From assembly GCA_016176335.1 (NCBI GenBank), contig JACOXI010000005.1, positions 1 to 61,390 of the forward strand: a stretch of DNA of 61,390 nt. The letters are read 5' to 3'. Positions 30,723 through 36,328 of this stretch are shown here, piece after piece. The stretch comes from Candidatus Daviesbacteria bacterium (GTDB lineage Bacteria; Patescibacteriota; Microgenomatia; Daviesbacterales; UBA10151). The translations under genes were made by a program, and so were the position numbers. Within the stretch, counting starts at the first letter, position 1, and the number at the start of each line of letters is the position of its first letter. A model generated the notes under the pieces. It was not told where the DNA came from and did not search any database. It was given only the letters and a program-made list of their open reading frames with translations.

Positions 30723-31985
30723 TTAGGTAAGGATTCTTTCAAAATTATCAATTTTTTTGAAAGGGCCAATCACTTGTAAATTAAATTTCTCTTTTACAAA
30801 TAATTCTCTCGCAATCTTTTGAATATCCTCAACTGTGACATTTTCGATATTTTTTAAATATTCCTCAAATGTTTCTATTTTACCCTCCAAAACAAAATTA
30901 GTGCCAAAATATTCTGCTAAAAAATTTGTTGATTCACTGTGCAAAGCGATTCTACCTCTGATCATTTCTTTAGCTTTTTTCAACTCCTCACCCGAAACTT
31001 TCTCCATTACTGTCCGTATTAACTCTGCATATATAACCTCTAATCCTTCATATACCTTTTCCAGTTTTAATCCTGCATAAGCTGTAAAAGTACCTGTATC
31101 CAAATAACAATTATTACTGGCGCTAACACGATAAGCCAAACCCCTACGCTCTCTCACTTGGATAAATAATCTTGAGGACATACCCTCTCCCAAAATTACA
31201 GATAAAATTTCAGCCGCATATCTTCTATTGTCAAACTTATCAAATCCCTCAACTCCCAGTATTAAATTGGCCTGATCTGTTTGCTTATAAAAAACATTAA
31301 CTTTGGCCTTTGTCTGCTTTGTCTTTTTGAAAGGTTCAAATTTAGTAATCGGTCTTGGCCGTATATCCGAAAAATAATTTGCGGCCAATCTTTCTATATC
31401 TTTTGGCAATCTACCTACATAAACCAATGTCATATTTTTTGAGGAATATAAAGACTCCATATATTTTACAAAATCATCTCTTAAAAATAAGTTTATTGTT
31501 TTTTCATCGCCGCCCAAATCCCAGCCCAAAGGCTGATCACCAAACTGCAACTCCTCATAAAGATCCCAGACCAAACGAGCAGGGATATCGCGAAGCATTC
31601 GGAGCTCTTCAGTAATAACTCCTTTCTCTTTCTCAATTTCTTCTCTTGATAAAAGAGATTCTTTAATCATTGAAGATAAAATATCGGATGCCAATTCTAT
31701 ATTTTTACTTGCGGATTTTATCCAGTAAAAAGTTACTTCCTTTGAGGTTGCCGCATTATTTACCGCTCCAATACCGTCAATCAAACCAGCAATTCTCTCC
31801 GCAGTAGGGAATTTTGCAGACCCTTTAAAAAACATGTGTTCCAGAAAATGTGATATGCCGTTTATTTTTTTGGTTTCATATCTGGAACCGGCTCCGACAG
31901 CAACTAGAGTGGTAACAGAATCCAGATGAGGTAGATCTACAGTAATCAGTGTTAAACCATTTGGTAAAGTTTTTAATCTATGCAT
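30723..31985 (-). CDS. M16-family zinc peptidase
   Basis: HFLEHMFFKG inverted zinc motif; MSSRLFIQVRERRGLAY. Confidence 0.95.
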   Translation of the reverse strand: MHRLKTLPNGLTLITVDLPHLDSVTTLVAVGAGSRYETKKINGISHFLEHMFFKGSAKFPTAERIAGLIDGIGAVNNAATSKEVTFYWIKSASKNIELASDILSSMIKESLLSREEIEKEKGVITEELRMLRDIPARLVWDLYEELQFGDQPLGWDLGGDEKTINLFLRDDFVKYMESLYSSKNMTLVYVGRLPKDIERLAANYFSDIRPRPITKFEPFKKTKQTKAKVNVFYKQTDQANLILGVEGFDKFDNRRYAAEILSVILGEGMSSRLFIQVRERRGLAYRVSASNNCYLDTGTFTAYAGLKLEKVYEGLEVIYAELIRTVMEKVSGEELKKAKEMIRGRIALHSESTNFLAEYFGTNFVLEGKIETFEEYLKNIENVTVEDIQKIARELFVKEKFNLQVIGPFKKIDNFERILT

Positions 31986-34002
31986 AATCTTTCAAATGTT
32001 TGAGCATTTCCGTAACTGTGTCTGCTATATCTAAATTTGTATTATCCAAAACAATTGCATCTTTGGGAATTCTCATAGGAGAAGCTTCCCTTTCGCTGTC
32101 GTATTTATCTCTTTCCATCATATCTTTTAAAACTGCGCCATAAGTTATTTCGGGCTCTTTTTTTAATTGCTTAAATCTTCTCCTAGCTCTTTCCTCCAAA
32201 GAAGCTGTCAGAAAAAATTTAAATTTTGCATCGGGGAAGATTTCGGACCCGATATCCCGTCCGCTCATCACCACTTTTCCATTTTCTGCAATCTTCCTTT
32301 GAGTATCTTTGACTATTTCTCTCACTTGGGGTTTTGCCGCCACAACATATACAAGACTTGAGATTTGGGGTGTATGTAGTTTATCCGTGACATCCTCATT
32401 ATCAAGATACATTTTCCAACCACTTCCGTTTTCAAATTTAATATCCAAATTTTTGTAAATATCCAAAATTTTATCCAACTCATCAGCACTGACATTTTCC
32501 TTCAGCATTCTCAAACATCCGGCCCGAAAAATCATTCCCGAATCAATGTATTTAAACCTTAATTTTTGCGCCAATAAAAATCCGACACTATTCTTGCCGG
32601 ATGAAGTCGGACCGTCAATGGTTATTATATCTTCCACAACTTTTAGCGCGGAGCGCCCCTTGTTTACCACTTTAACCTTCGGACCAGAAGATGTATCTTC
32701 TACCTCAAAACCTAACTTCTTAATTTCTAATCTTTTTTTATCCGACTCTTTGAAATTTCCTTTTTTTCTGGCATTTTCCCGTTCGTTTACTAATTTCATA
32801 ATATTTTCCGAAACTTTTATCTTTTTTCCCAAAATTTCATCAAGTTTTAATCCCAAAATTTTATCCATTTCCAAAATTGTTTTGGCTTTGGCTGATGTGG
32901 GATAATCGGAGCGAACCATATCCCAGAGGATGGCCAAAGCTTGTGGCATTCCCAGATCATTATTTATAGCTTCGACAAAATCCTGTTCAAACTGGGCGCA
33001 CCCAATTTTTGGATCATCCCAATCTCTAATTATTTCCCTTAAATTATTCAAAGCATTTTGGGCAGCTTTTAAAGATTCCCAAGTAAAATTCAATTTATCC
33101 CTATAATGAGCTGTTAAACTAAGATAGCGAAAACTCAAAGGATCAAAGCCTTTATCTTCCAGATCCTTCAGTTTGTAAAAGTTACCTGCAGATTTTGCCA
33201 TTTTTTGACCGCTTACCAGAAGATGTTCCCCTTCTACAAAAAAATTTACAAACTTGTGGGCAGTTTTCCCCTCCGATTGCGCTATCTCGTTTTCATGGTG
33301 GGGAAAAATCAAATCTACCCCGCCCGCATGAATATCGAATGTCTGGCCTAAATATTCCTGGCTCATCACCGAACACTCAATATGCCAGCCGGGCCTGCCT
33401 CTTCCCCAAGGAGAATCATATCCAACCTCATCAAGGTGTACCGCTTTCCATAAGGCGAAATCCACTATATTATCTTTGGTGTATTCATCAGATAAAATCC
33501 TGGTGCCACTTTTTAACTCCCGCTTATCAACACCCGAAAGTCTTCCATAACCTCGAAATTCCGATATGTCAAAATAAACGGATCCATCTTTTTCAACATA
33601 AGCCATACCTTTCTTTATCAGCTCCTCAATATACTTGACCATGTGTCCTATGTGTTCGGTTGCCTTAGGATATACATTTGCCGATTTGATATTCAGTTTT
33701 TCTAAGTCTTTGAAGAATGCTTGTTCATATGGCTTGGAAAACTCATCAATGGGTAAACCTTTTTCTTTTGCTCCCTTGATAATTTTGTCATCAATATCCG
33801 TGATATTCATTACCCTTTTTACCTCAAATCCGTTTGCCTCCAATACCATTTGTAAAACGTCTTCAAAAATAAAAGTCCTTAAATTTCCAATATGGGCAAA
33901 ATCGTATGTGGTGGGACCGCAGGTATACAAACCTACTGTAGGAGGATTCAAAGATTTAAATTCTTCGACGCTTTTGCTTAAATAATTATAAATTTTTAAC
34001 AT
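31978..34002 (-). CDS. cysS: Cysteine-tRNA ligase fused to a C-terminal cytidylate kinase
   Basis: CGPTTYDFAHIGN, DFALWK, PGWHIEC, KMAKS; then ITIDGPTSSGK, YIDSGMIFRA, GRDIGSEIFPDA, RDKYDSEREASP. Confidence 0.93.
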   Translation of the reverse strand: MLKIYNYLSKSVEEFKSLNPPTVGLYTCGPTTYDFAHIGNLRTFIFEDVLQMVLEANGFEVKRVMNITDIDDKIIKGAKEKGLPIDEFSKPYEQAFFKDLEKLNIKSANVYPKATEHIGHMVKYIEELIKKGMAYVEKDGSVYFDISEFRGYGRLSGVDKRELKSGTRILSDEYTKDNIVDFALWKAVHLDEVGYDSPWGRGRPGWHIECSVMSQEYLGQTFDIHAGGVDLIFPHHENEIAQSEGKTAHKFVNFFVEGEHLLVSGQKMAKSAGNFYKLKDLEDKGFDPLSFRYLSLTAHYRDKLNFTWESLKAAQNALNNLREIIRDWDDPKIGCAQFEQDFVEAINNDLGMPQALAILWDMVRSDYPTSAKAKTILEMDKILGLKLDEILGKKIKVSENIMKLVNERENARKKGNFKESDKKRLEIKKLGFEVEDTSSGPKVKVVNKGRSALKVVEDIITIDGPTSSGKNSVGFLLAQKLRFKYIDSGMIFRAGCLRMLKENVSADELDKILDIYKNLDIKFENGSGWKMYLDNEDVTDKLHTPQISSLVYVVAAKPQVREIVKDTQRKIAENGKVVMSGRDIGSEIFPDAKFKFFLTASLEERARRRFKQLKKEPEITYGAVLKDMMERDKYDSEREASPMRIPKDAIVLDNTNLDIADTVTEMLKHLKDYA

Positions 34003-34424
34003 CAGCCGCCAACTCCTCTTCCTTTACCTCTTTCTGCCTGGGTTCTAGCAATATCTTCCCTTAATTCTCCTGGTCTTTTGGGGGCTTGTTGTAATTGGGC
34101 CTTTTGTACTTTTTTGGTTTGCGCTTCCTGTTGCATTTGTTGCAATCTTTGGGCTTCTGTCTGTTTTCTATCTTGTTGGGCTTTTTTAATATTTATATCC
34201 AAGGTTTTATAGTAATTGATTACTTTTCTGGCTTTCTCAAGTCTTTGTTGTTCTTCCTGTTGTTTTTGTTGCATTTGTTGCGGAGTAAGTTGTGTGCCGG
34301 CTGCTGTCTGAATATTTTGTTCTATCATCTGACCAACCTCATCTTTCACATCCTTTGCCACCTCTTTGACAGTTTGTAACATCTCCCCTGTAACCTGTTT
34401 TATTCCACCAGCGGCATCAGCCAT
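34002..34424 (-). CDS. Hypothetical Gln/Lys-rich coiled-coil protein
   Basis: Intact ORF abutting the cysS start. Confidence 0.8.
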   Translation of the reverse strand: MADAAGGIKQVTGEMLQTVKEVAKDVKDEVGQMIEQNIQTAAGTQLTPQQMQQKQQEEQQRLEKARKVINYYKTLDINIKKAQQDRKQTEAQRLQQMQQEAQTKKVQKAQLQQAPKRPGELREDIARTQAERGKGRGVGG

Positions 34425-34436
34425 GAGTTAAGTATA

Positions 34437-34524
34437 AAGAATTTAGAATTAAGAATCTAGAATGCAGAATTAAATTCAGAATGTAAAATTTTTATTCTGA
34501 ATTCTGAACTCTAAATTCTAAATT
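34437..34524. repeat. Inverted heptamer arrays forming a long hairpin
   Basis: WAGAATT-like left arm, ATTCTRA-like right arm; core AATTCAGAAT/ATTCTGAATT. Confidence 0.85.
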
Positions 34525-34527
34525 AAC

Positions 34528-35124
34528 CTAGTATTCCTTCCTACCTTCTAACGCCCTTGATAAGGTGGTCTCGTCTGCATACTCTATATCAGACCCGACC
34601 GGTAATCCTCTGGCAATTCTGGTCATTGTTACTCCCAGTGGTGATATTAATCTTTGAAGATACATAGCAGTTGCCTCTCCTTCCATGGTGGGATTTGTTG
34701 CCAAAATTATTTCCTTGACTTTTCCATTTTTGAGGCGAGGCAACAGCTCCCTGATATGTAACTCACCCGGTCCGATATTTTCCAGAGGGGAGATCACTCC
34801 GTGTAATACATGATATAAACCTTTATAGTTTGCCTTCTCCAATGCCAACACATCCAAAGGATTCTCCACAACCATTAAAGTTTGTCTATCGCGGGATTCA
34901 TCAGAACAGATACTACAAGTGTCTTCCTCTCCTATGTTAAAACAAATGGAGCAGATTTTGGTTTTCTCTTTCATCTCAAGAGCGGCATGTGCCAGGCTTT
35001 CAGCTTGTTCGTAAGGAGCATGGAGTAAGTAGAATGTTAGTCTTTCTGCGGTTTTGGGACCAATTCCCGGAAGTCTTTCAAAAGCCTCAATCAAATTTTG
35101 TATCGGTTTTGGAACTCGTGCCAT
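34528..35124 (-). CDS. recR: Recombination mediator RecR
   Basis: LPGIGPKTAERL, CSICFN, YHVLHG, ATNPTMEGEATA. Confidence 0.98.
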   Translation of the reverse strand: MARVPKPIQNLIEAFERLPGIGPKTAERLTFYLLHAPYEQAESLAHAALEMKEKTKICSICFNIGEEDTCSICSDESRDRQTLMVVENPLDVLALEKANYKGLYHVLHGVISPLENIGPGELHIRELLPRLKNGKVKEIILATNPTMEGEATAMYLQRLISPLGVTMTRIARGLPVGSDIEYADETTLSRALEGRKEY

Positions 35125-35140
35125 TGCGAGGCAAATTGTA

Positions 35141-35419
35141 TCACATTCCGGGGATGCCTAAGCCGCCCATCATGGGTTTCATTTCATCTGCTGCGACTTT
35201 TTGAGATTGTTTTAAAGCTTCATTAACAGCTTCTGTTATTTTTTCAAAATTCTGCTCCCCTGAAATGGAAACTACTTTTTGATCTGCCGTCATTATAACT
35301 ATTACCCCTTTGTGTTCAACCGTAATTTGAATCCCAGCCAACTTTTTTTGAATTTCCATGGCCTGATCTCTCATTTTCTTAAGATCACCAAGCTGTTTTA
35401 AATTGTCCATTAAACCCAT
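35141..35419 (-). CDS. YbaB/EbfC nucleoid-associated protein
   Basis: Size, AVNEALKQSQ motif and adjacency to recR. Confidence 0.88.
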   Translation of the reverse strand: MGLMDNLKQLGDLKKMRDQAMEIQKKLAGIQITVEHKGVIVIMTADQKVVSISGEQNFEKITEAVNEALKQSQKVAADEMKPMMGGLGIPGM

Positions 35420-35426
35420 ATGATTT

Positions 35427-35496
35427 GTTTATCGTTTATGGTTTATCGTTAATCGTTTTTTGCGCTTTACGATATACGATAATCGATCTTACGATA
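35427..35496. repeat. Inverted heptamer arrays (TTTATCG / ACGATAW)
   Basis: TTTATCG TTTATGG TTTATCG TTAATCG ... ACGATAT ACGATAA. Confidence 0.8.
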
Positions 35497-36328
35497 TTCC
35501 TCCTTTGACAGATTCTACCACATTCTTTAACAAGCTCACAATTGTTAAAGGACCAATTCCGCCAATGGTTGGACAATATAATTTGGCAATTTTACTGACA
35601 TCTTCCTCTTTAATATCTCCATAAATTTTCTCTTTTCCTGCCACAATTTCTTTGCCAACCCCCACCCCCACCACATAAGCTCCTTTTTTAAGATTTGTTT
35701 TATTGAGAATATTTTTCACTCCTGTTGCGCTAATCACAACATCTCCACCTTTTATCACTGTCTCTGGATTCAGAGTATCTCTTACAACAATCTCCGGATT
35801 AAATCCTTTACTTTCCAGAAGTTTTATAGTTGGTCTACCTGCTGTTTTACCACGACCTACTACCACAATCTTTTTACCCTTTAAAAAGTCTTCTGTTTGT
35901 TTAAATCCTTCAATATATGCAAAAGCTGTTAACATCTCCCAAACAGCTAAAGCAGTTGCACCATGATATGGAGAATTTTCTAAAAACCCATCTACATCTT
36001 TTTGAAGAATAATACTATTTTCAAATTCATCAAAATTCCATGAATCATAAACAGGATATTGAACTATGATTCCGTTAACAATTGGATCTTTGTTTAATCT
36101 TTCAATAGTTTTTTTACATTTCTCTGTTTCATCCTCTGAAAACTCATAAAGAGTTGTTTCTACTCCTATTGTTTTTGCAGTTTTTATTTTATTTTTGACA
36201 TAAATTCTGGATAAAGGATTATTACCTGCTAAAATTATTGCCAGGCGCGGGTGAAGTTTTTTGTTTTTAATTTCTATCTCTAATTTCTTAAGTATTGCCT
36301 CTGCAACATCCTTTCCGGATACTTTCAT
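35489..36328 (-). CDS. folD: Methylene-THF dehydrogenase/cyclohydrolase
   Basis: SRIYVKNK, NGIIVQYP, KDVDG, VVGRG, GGIGPLTI; start moved to MKVSGK. Confidence 0.93.
   Translation of the reverse strand: MKVSGKDVAEAILKKLEIEIKNKKLHPRLAIILAGNNPLSRIYVKNKIKTAKTIGVETTLYEFSEDETEKCKKTIERLNKDPIVNGIIVQYPVYDSWNFDEFENSIILQKDVDGFLENSPYHGATALAVWEMLTAFAYIEGFKQTEDFLKGKKIVVVGRGKTAGRPTIKLLESKGFNPEIVVRDTLNPETVIKGGDVVISATGVKNILNKTNLKKGAYVVGVGVGKEIVAGKEKIYGDIKEEDVSKIAKLYCPTIGGIGPLTIVSLLKNVVESVKGGIS

What the first reader, a model, noticed from the sequence alone, without database searches (positions are those of the whole stretch)
31978..34002. Cysteinyl-tRNA synthetase fused to cytidylate kinase
Seen: complete CysRS, the linker VVNKGRSALKVVED, then complete Cmk, with no stop. 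The linker DNA holds a small palindrome GCGC-GGA-GCGC (32646-32656), and a GTG could start Cmk separately. Established: the two enzymes are normally separate and functionally unrelated; known Cmk fusions involve partners such as Der, PanC or AroA. Inference: an accidental read-through fusion, possibly repeat-mediated, or a real link between translation and CTP supply.
Basis: partly seen in the sequence, partly recalled or inferred. Interest (0 to 1): 0.55.

Follow-up and report, generated by a model that had tools for sequence, protein, structure and literature searches.

The report
Recent cysS-cmk gene fusion
In this ultra-small groundwater bacterium (Candidatus Daviesbacteria), a 16-base insertion has joined the neighbouring genes for cysteinyl-tRNA synthetase and cytidylate kinase into one reading frame; this looks like a young, probably neutral accident rather than a new biological link.

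Summary
Window 31978-34002 (- strand) is one 674-codon frame. It holds a complete CysRS (aa 1-447), eight new linker codons, and a complete Cmk (aa 456-674).

The junction is not an assembly error. Contigs from four runs in two groundwater studies cross it without a single difference.

About a quarter of family genomes have cysS directly followed by cmk. There cmk has its own leaderless promoter, an extended -10 (TGGTAAACT) that also encodes the CysRS tail VVN plus the stop.

In the window a GC-rich 16-mer (32646-32661) sits inside that hexamer. Removing it restores the -10, the TAA stop and a 7-nt spacing to the GTG start. So one insertion probably destroyed the promoter, shifted the stop out of frame and brought cmk into frame.

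All close relatives, including a CysRS 89% identical, keep the stop. One other family genome (G080) has an independent stop-free fusion with a different junction. A third (G046) fuses CysRS to the next gene downstream, an M16 peptidase.

No CysRS-Cmk protein turned up in two very large protein searches. The 16-mer has no other copy in the genome, so a repeat origin is not shown.

Verdict: a real, recent, lineage-specific bifunctional gene, most likely tolerated rather than selected. Interest is modest.

The parts
31978..34002 (-). Fused cysS-cmk ORF, 674 codons plus TAG stop
   Evidence: junction confirmed in contigs of 4 runs
32662..34002 (-). CysRS module, aa 1-447. It has Cys28, HIGN, Cys209, His234/Glu238, KMAKS and the C-terminal anticodon-binding part. 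The last three codons (VVN) are the translated remnant of the cmk promoter.
   Evidence: aligned with E. coli CysRS 1li5 over residues 1-455; for VVN
32662..32669 (-). TGGTAAAC: the truncated extended -10 of the ancestral leaderless cmk promoter. Its last T is now separated from it by the insert.
   Evidence: Intact TG[GA]TAAACT lies 7-9 nt before the cmk start in most of the 27 cmk loci (about 20 of 25 unfused; TATAAT-type -10 in 2 more). The same motif class is enriched 6-10 nt before long-ORF starts in this genome.
32646..32661 (-). 16-nt GC-rich insert AAGGGGCGCTCCGCGC. It contains the mini-hairpin GGCGC-TCC-GCGC(T) and provides most of the linker codons.
   Evidence: Comparison with junctions of relatives. 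Deleting it restores the -10, the TAA stop and a 7-nt spacer. It has no second copy in the genome. It is one of 54 islands with at least 13 of 14 GC in 925 kb.
32638..32661 (-). New linker codons KGRSALKV (aa 448-455), read from the insert plus the former stop and spacer
32635..32637 (-). GTG, the ancestral cmk start codon, now Val456 inside the fused frame
   Evidence: Aligned with the GTG/ATG starts of free cmk genes
31981..32637 (-). Cmk module, aa 456-674. It has the P-loop GPTSSGK, DSGMIFR, SGRD and ERDxxDxxR.
   Evidence: aligned with E. coli Cmk 1kdo residues 4-220. It is the only cmk above cut-off in the genome.
30723..31985 (-). Downstream M16 peptidase gene. Its ATG overlaps the end of the fused ORF, and the same synteny is seen in G080.

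Best explanation
The fused gene is real and young. It encodes a bifunctional protein of about 77 kDa (estimated from length): canonical CysRS followed by cytidylate kinase.

Shown: in this family cysS is often directly followed by cmk. cmk carries its own extended -10 promoter (TGGTAAACT) 7-9 nt before a GTG start. When the genes abut, that promoter is also read as the last CysRS codons VVN plus the stop.

Inferred: in the window's lineage one 16-nt GC-rich insertion landed between TAAAC and T of the -10. That single event split the promoter and moved it 16 nt away from the GTG. It also pushed the TAA stop out of frame and brought cmk from the +2 frame into the cysS frame.

Inferred: Cmk, the genome's only copy, is now made mainly or only as the C-terminal domain of CysRS, translated from the cysS start. 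A linker of about 14 residues (VVNKGRSALKVVED) joins the domains, and each keeps its own activity. The fusion is most likely tolerated, neutral or slightly costly, rather than selected for a joint function.
For: The ORF, both domains and all catalytic motifs are intact. The junction is identical in contigs of four runs from two studies. The genome has no second cmk above cut-off.

The best 120 homologues are all stand-alone CysRS of 425-470 aa. The closest, at 89% identity, ends ...GPKVKMVN-stop. cysS-cmk adjacency with a stop is seen in about 24 of 96 family genomes.

The -10 motif travels with cmk even where cmk is not next to cysS. CysRS ends in VVN-stop only where cmk abuts. The same motif class sits 6-10 nt before long-ORF starts in 59 of 336 occurrences in this genome, against a background of about 2 per position.

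Deleting the 16-mer restores TGGTAAACT, TAA and a 7-nt spacer, read directly.

An independent second fusion exists in G080 with a different junction (GEFT, GTG replaced by ACG, no promoter). The CysRS halves of the two fusions cannot be sisters (AU p = 1e-78). CysRS is fused to the M16 peptidase in G046. Terminal branch lengths of both halves are ordinary: 0.18 and 0.31 against medians of 0.26 and 0.25.
Against: There are no transcript or protein data, so the size of the product is untested. The GTG is retained. An SD-like AAGGGG lies 18 nt upstream with a small hairpin between, so some free Cmk by internal initiation is conceivable. DNA of the 89%-identical relative could not be fetched, so the predicted ancestral junction is inferred from more distant relatives at 72-77% identity. 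The origin of the 16-mer is unknown. The AU test on the short Cmk half does not formally reject a common origin of the two fusions (p = 0.058). The AlphaFold model was uninformative for the Cmk half.
Confidence: 0.7

Rival explanations
1. The fused frame exists, but functional Cmk is still made mostly as a free protein. It would start internally at the retained GTG (Val456). The insert would supply a new ribosome-binding site: AAGGGG pairs with the anti-SD, and the GGCGC-TCC-GCGCU hairpin would bring it within normal reach of the GTG, as in the split initiation regions of phage T4 genes 38 and 25.
For: The GTG is kept here, whereas the other fusion (G080) lost it to ACG. AAGGGG lies 18 nt upstream, and the predicted 5-bp hairpin occupies 13 of those nt.
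Against: The fold of the junction is no more stable than shuffled sequence (z = 0.09 and -0.70). AAGGGG is a weak SD. Ribosomes elongating through from cysS would compete with internal initiation. The GTG may simply not have had time to mutate. There are no expression data.
Confidence: 0.17
2. The fusion is adaptive: tethering Cmk to CysRS couples CMP recycling and CTP supply to tRNA charging, or fixes their stoichiometry, and it was selected twice in the family.
For: There are two stop-free CysRS-Cmk fusions in one family, with different junctions. The cysS-cmk neighbourhood is conserved.
Against: Both fusions are single tips among unfused relatives. None was found in the 401 class genomes apart from the window's own genome G000, among 370-1180-aa proteins matching the Cmk region, or among the 150 best of 1.84 billion representatives. 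In unfused relatives cmk has its own promoter, so it is not even co-translated. CysRS is also fused to a different neighbour in G046, which fits accident in tightly packed genomes. No biochemical link between the two enzymes is known to me.
Confidence: 0.08
3. Sequencing or assembly artefact, or a minority allele: the real population has separate genes.
For: The genome is a metagenome-assembled genome (7 contigs, 96.9% complete). The laid data are contigs, which drop rare variants.
Against: Contigs from four runs, at least four samples and two studies (dated 2017 and 2020) carry the identical junction at depths of 6.6-19. The difference from relatives is a 16-nt block, not a homopolymer slip.
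Confidence: 0.03

Closest known systems
Bifunctional Cmk fusion proteins curated by NCBIfam: PanC/Cmk (NF010004), AroA/Cmk (NF008816) and Cmk/Der (NF007071). S1-Cmk and Cmk-PlsC architectures were also seen.
   Same: A full cytidylate kinase domain is joined in one polypeptide to an unrelated housekeeping enzyme that is its chromosomal neighbour. Cmk is the C-terminal module, as in PanC/Cmk and AroA/Cmk.
   Different: The partner is CysRS. Whole-protein scores are far below those families' cut-offs (183 vs 524, 168 vs 943, 131 vs 953). Those fusions are fixed across clades, whereas this one is a single tip with unfused sisters.
Other CysRS fusions found here: cysteine synthase (PALP)-CysRS and CysRS-glycosyltransferase 2
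   Same: A canonical CysRS carries an extra enzyme domain in one ORF.
   Different: PALP-CysRS links two steps of cysteine use and is N-terminal. Here the partner is functionally unrelated and C-terminal, directly after the anticodon-binding domain.
Fusion of adjacent genes by loss of the intervening stop (the 'Rosetta stone' composite proteins analysed in PMC2248599)
   Same: Two co-oriented neighbours become one frame. The unfused state persists in relatives.
   Different: Here the before and after states and the causal lesion can be read at base level: a 16-nt insert that also destroys an embedded promoter. The fusion probably does not signal a functional association, which is a caution for that inference method.
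G080 CysRS-Cmk (L037:1501-3543) in the same family
   Same: Same two domains, same order, same downstream M16 peptidase gene, and no stop.
   Different: A different junction: a 4-codon linker GEFT, the start codon changed to ACG, and no GC-rich insert. Its CysRS half belongs to a different deep clade (AU p = 1e-78). It was not checked at read level.

Membership tests
Cysteine--tRNA ligase (TIGR00435 / PF01406) | Whole-protein score above the curated cut-off, with the full-length profile covered | tested here: met
   464.2 bits against a cut-off of 340; profile positions 1-464 of 466 on aa 2-444. PF01406 scores 360.8 bits.
Cysteine--tRNA ligase (TIGR00435 / PF01406) | Class I signature motifs HIGH and KMSKS | tested here: met
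   HIGN and KMAKS align with HIGH and KMSKS of E. coli 1li5. HIGN is the family consensus in alignment A1.
Cysteine--tRNA ligase (TIGR00435 / PF01406) | Zinc ligands Cys28, Cys209, His234 and Glu238 (E. coli numbering; residue roles from my own knowledge) | tested here: met
   All four are aligned and identical in the 1li5 alignment: CGPT, WHIECS, PHHENE.
Cysteine--tRNA ligase (TIGR00435 / PF01406) | C-terminal anticodon-binding domain | tested here: met
   The alignment to 1li5 runs to residue 455 of 461. PF23493 alone is below its cut-off (17.3 vs 23). The AlphaFold model is confident (pLDDT about 87-98) to roughly residue 440 and falls off from about 441.
Cysteine--tRNA ligase (TIGR00435 / PF01406) | Aminoacylation of tRNA-Cys | not testable with these tools
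   Needs an enzyme assay.
(d)CMP kinase, bacterial type (TIGR00017 / PF02224) | Whole-domain score above the cut-off | tested here: met
   206.1 bits against a cut-off of 135.55; profile positions 4-216 of 217. PF02224 scores 210.3 bits.
(d)CMP kinase, bacterial type (TIGR00017 / PF02224) | P-loop and CMP-binding motifs (GxxxxGK, DSGxxYR, GRD, RDxxDxxR) | tested here: met
   GPTSSGK, DSGMIFR, SGRD and ERDKYDSER align with E. coli 1kdo and two other solved Cmk structures.
(d)CMP kinase, bacterial type (TIGR00017 / PF02224) | CMP/dCMP phosphorylation | not testable with these tools
   Needs an enzyme assay.
Curated bifunctional Cmk fusions (PanC/Cmk NF010004, AroA/Cmk NF008816, Cmk/Der NF007071) | Whole-protein score above the cut-off, meaning both halves are present | tested here: not met
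   182.8 vs 524, 168.4 vs 943, and 130.8 vs 953. Only the Cmk part matches.
Dispersed GC-rich hairpin mini-repeats of Daviesbacteria (earlier notes of this scan, e.g. e1-1563439) | Further copies of the same element elsewhere in the genome | tested here: not met
   There is no second copy of the 15-22-mer even with 2-4 mismatches. The 11-nt palindrome occurs only once more in the genome. The GC-rich islands of the genome are heterogeneous, and several are ordinary conserved codons.

The most novel reading that the evidence does not exclude
Tethering Cmk to CysRS is advantageous in these reduced genomes and has been selected at least twice in Daviesbacteria. It would give a true bifunctional enzyme that couples pyrimidine-nucleotide recycling to tRNA charging, or that uses CysRS expression to set the Cmk dose after loss of the cmk promoter.
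Probability: 0.07. Interest if true: 0.55.

Novelty: new member of a known kind. Interest (0 to 1): 0.3.

Why it matters
This is a cleanly documented gene fusion caught early. The unfused ancestral layout, the causal 16-nt lesion and the fused product can all be read. An independent second fusion, and a third with a different partner, occur at the same locus in sister genera.

It shows how overlapping signals in very compact genomes let one small insertion remove a stop and a promoter together and create a two-enzyme protein. Here the overlapping signal is a leaderless promoter that doubles as the last codons and stop of the upstream gene.

It is also a caution for 'Rosetta stone' function prediction and for annotation pipelines. 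The CysRS-Cmk architecture most likely says nothing about a functional link.

If both activities survive, the organism's only Cmk now depends on cysS translation. That is a testable example of a tolerated fusion.

Tried and rejected
I therefore could not fetch the DNA of the closest relatives known only as proteins: P0002 at 89% and P0003-P0009 at 81-83%.

2. The search for related loci on metagenome contigs was swamped by the generic pattern IFPHHENE. The best locus was 54% identical and no close relative or fusion was found.

3. The exact 674-aa protein is not in the 15-billion-protein collection, so cluster size and other holders are unknown.

4. No RNA holder was listed by the look-up of sequencing runs, so nothing can be said on expression.

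5. AlphaFold2 on a 50-row alignment gave a confident CysRS half (pLDDT above 90). The Cmk half was poor (pLDDT 28-57, modelled as all helices) because only about 18 Cmk rows were supplied. It is uninformative on domain packing, so no fold search was run.

6. A repeat-family origin for the insert is rejected. GC island as a class marker is rejected because several islands are ordinary conserved motifs such as HMGNARGG of ArgRS.

7. The large 'open_frame_aa' values for G109, G108, G051, G110, G095 and G015 suggested more fusions. Direct inspection shows normal 450-483-aa CysRS frames ending in stops.

8. The consensus promoter/terminator scan of 31800-35600 gave nothing above shuffles at the junction.

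9. Literature searches found no paper on a CysRS-Cmk fusion, and nothing useful on leaderless genes in CPR.

10. Earlier notes of this scan hold no record of this fusion.
Full report
**Observation.** The window holds one open frame at 31978..34002 on the - strand, 674 aa. Pfam and NCBIfam place a full cysteine--tRNA ligase on aa 1-444 (TIGR00435, 464 bits, cut-off 340, profile 1-464 of 466). They place a full (d)CMP kinase on aa 459-671 (TIGR00017, 206 bits, cut-off 135.55).

Alignments with solved structures show the expected catalytic residues. For CysRS these are Cys28, HIGN, Cys209, His234/Glu238 and KMAKS. For Cmk they are GPTSSGK, DSGMIFR, SGRD and ERDxxDxxR. Names attached to homologues place the organism in Candidatus Daviesbacteria (Patescibacteria/CPR). 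The genome held is 925 kb in 7 contigs at 38.7% GC.

**Is the junction real?** Logan contigs of four groundwater runs were laid on 31500-34500. The runs are X1 and X6 from a study dated 2017, and X4 and X5 from a study dated 2020. In each run a contig bridges 32620-32680 with no differences and no gaps, at depths of 6.6-19. The samples of X5 and X6 are not flagged as the possible source of this assembly. Contigs cannot exclude a minority allele, but an assembly or sequencing error private to one data set is very unlikely.

**What do relatives have?** The 120 best hits in the 5.8-billion-protein search are all stand-alone CysRS of 425-470 aa. The closest, at 89% identity, ends ...GPKVKMVN-stop, exactly where the window reads ...GPKVKVVN-K.

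Across 96 genomes of the same family, cmk lies directly downstream of cysS (110 nt or less) in about 26, and within about 1.3 kb in some 20 more. Only one other genome has a stop-free CysRS-Cmk frame: G080 (L037), in a different genus. Several large 'open frame' figures proved not to be fusions on inspection.

Beyond the family the architecture was not found:
- None apart from the window's own genome G000 in a 401-genome sample of the class.
- None among 370-1180-aa proteins matching the Cmk region. That search returned S1-, PlsC- and AroA-Cmk fusions instead.
- None among the 150 best of 1.84 billion cluster representatives. The long CysRS proteins there are PALP-CysRS, CysRS-GT2 or tandem forms.

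**Anatomy of the junction.** In about 20 of the 25 unfused cmk loci examined, an extended -10 of the form TG[GA]TAAACT lies 7-9 nt before the GTG or ATG start of cmk, and two more carry a TATAAT-type -10 at the same distance. This also holds where cmk is separated from cysS by 0.4-1.2 kb. That spacing predicts a leaderless or nearly leaderless mRNA, an inference from the usual distance between -10 and transcription start.

The same motif class is strongly enriched 6-10 nt before long-ORF starts in this genome. That accounts for 59 of 336 occurrences, against about 2 per position elsewhere.

Where cysS abuts cmk, the promoter is read in the cysS frame as GTG-GTA-AAC-TAA/TAG, which is the tail VVN-stop. 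CysRS proteins whose gene is not followed by cmk lack that tail. So VVN is a translated promoter.

The window reads GTGGTAAAC, then AAGGGGCGCTCCGCGC, then TAAAAGTT, then GTG GAA GAT. Removing the 16-mer (32661-32646) restores three ancestral features at once: an intact TGGTAAACT, a TAA stop in the cysS frame, and a 7-nt spacer to the GTG. Spacings of 6-7 nt are the commonest in this genome. cmk would then lie in the +2 frame.

A single 16-nt insertion therefore explains three things together: loss of the stop by frame displacement, the in-frame join, and the split, displaced promoter. This is inference from relatives 72-77% identical, because the 89% relative's DNA could not be fetched.

The insert is 14 of 14 GC at its core and folds into a 5-bp hairpin. 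That fold is no better than shuffled sequence. The insert has no second copy in the genome. Its origin is unknown. Earlier notes of this scan report GC-rich hairpin mini-insertions in this genome, but I could not show membership of any family. GC-rich islands here are a mixed bag.

**Independent events.** The G080 junction is different...GSEVK-GEFT-EDIITIDGP. It has no promoter motif, ACG in place of the GTG start, and no GC-rich insert.

In the CysRS tree the two fused genes fall in two well-supported clades (99 and 95 SH-aLRT), each among unfused genes. Forcing them together costs 335 log-likelihood units (AU p = 1e-78). In the Cmk tree, G080 pairs with unfused G045 (support 97) and the window pairs with unfused G088 (support 88). 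The AU test there is only borderline (p = 0.058). Independent origin is the better reading.

In a third genome, G046, CysRS continues without a stop into the M16 peptidase, which is the next gene after cmk in the window (single 2.6-kb contig, unchecked). Fusions at the 3' end of cysS thus recur with different partners. That fits accident in tightly packed operons better than a specific CysRS-Cmk partnership.

**Function.** The fused gene carries the genome's only cmk above cut-off. It also carries the only full-length CysRS. A second CysRS-like gene of 390 aa lacks the anticodon-binding domain. Both halves have ordinary terminal branch lengths.

I conclude, by inference, that Cmk is now produced as the C-terminal domain of CysRS and that both activities persist. 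The main uncertainty is whether some free Cmk still arises from the retained GTG. An SD-like AAGGGG sits 18 nt upstream with the hairpin between them, a layout recalling the split initiation regions of T4 genes 38 and 25. I give this rival about 0.17.

**Comparison and novelty.** Cmk is a frequent fusion partner: PanC, AroA and Der in NCBIfam, and S1 and PlsC. CysRS also occurs in other fusions. I found the CysRS-Cmk pair in no database search and in no paper. This is a new member of a well-known kind, the fusion of adjacent genes by loss of a stop. It is of modest interest, chiefly as a base-level before-and-after example and as a caution for fusion-based function inference (PMC2248599).

No claim in this report rests on the unpublished genome G160 listed.

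Noticed in passing
G000:C1:77697-78866 (L129:1198-2367, - strand): A second CysRS-like gene of 390 aa. It scores 414.6 bits on TIGR00435 but covers only profile positions 1-370 of 466, so it lacks the anticodon-binding domain, an MshC-like architecture. Homologues at 37-42% identity occur in at least 25 genomes of the family.
   Followed up: partly
L134:6-2618 (G046:C72, + strand): CysRS (aa 18-319 on PF01406) runs without a stop into an M16 peptidase (PF00675 and PF05193, aa 472-790), with no cmk between. This is another fusion at the 3' end of cysS, on a 2.6-kb contig, with the frame open at the contig end. It was not checked at read level.
   Followed up: partly
Whole genome G000; in the window, e.g. 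32662-32669: Extended -10 motifs (TGnTA[AT]A[AC]T) pile up 6-10 nt before the starts of long ORFs, in 59 of 336 occurrences. This suggests many leaderless genes in this Daviesbacteria genome. No paper on leaderless genes in CPR was found.
   Followed up: partly
L037:1491-1503 (G080): The conserved N-terminus of G080 cysS has no ATG, GTG or TTG. An ATT at 1501-1503, 4 nt after GGAGGG, aligns with the start of the window's CysRS, so ATT is the probable start codon.
   Followed up: no
Loci L003-L042 (trees): The CysRS and Cmk trees disagree. The Cmk genes of G088, G080 and G015 group with those of G000 and G045 (support 99), yet their CysRS genes lie in the other deep family clade. One of the two adjacent genes has been exchanged between genera, possibly with break points at the junction.
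   Followed up: no
L006, cysS-cmk spacer (G016): The spacer holds about 3.5 tandem copies of the heptamer CACTTGT/TCACTTG just before the cmk -10. It is the same kind of 7-base repeat reported by earlier notes for Daviesbacteria.
   Followed up: no
window 34002-34424 (- strand): A 140-aa Gln/Lys/Glu-rich ORF with no Pfam match lies directly upstream. Its stop overlaps the cysS start (TGATG). A similar ORF precedes cysS in G080.
   Followed up: no
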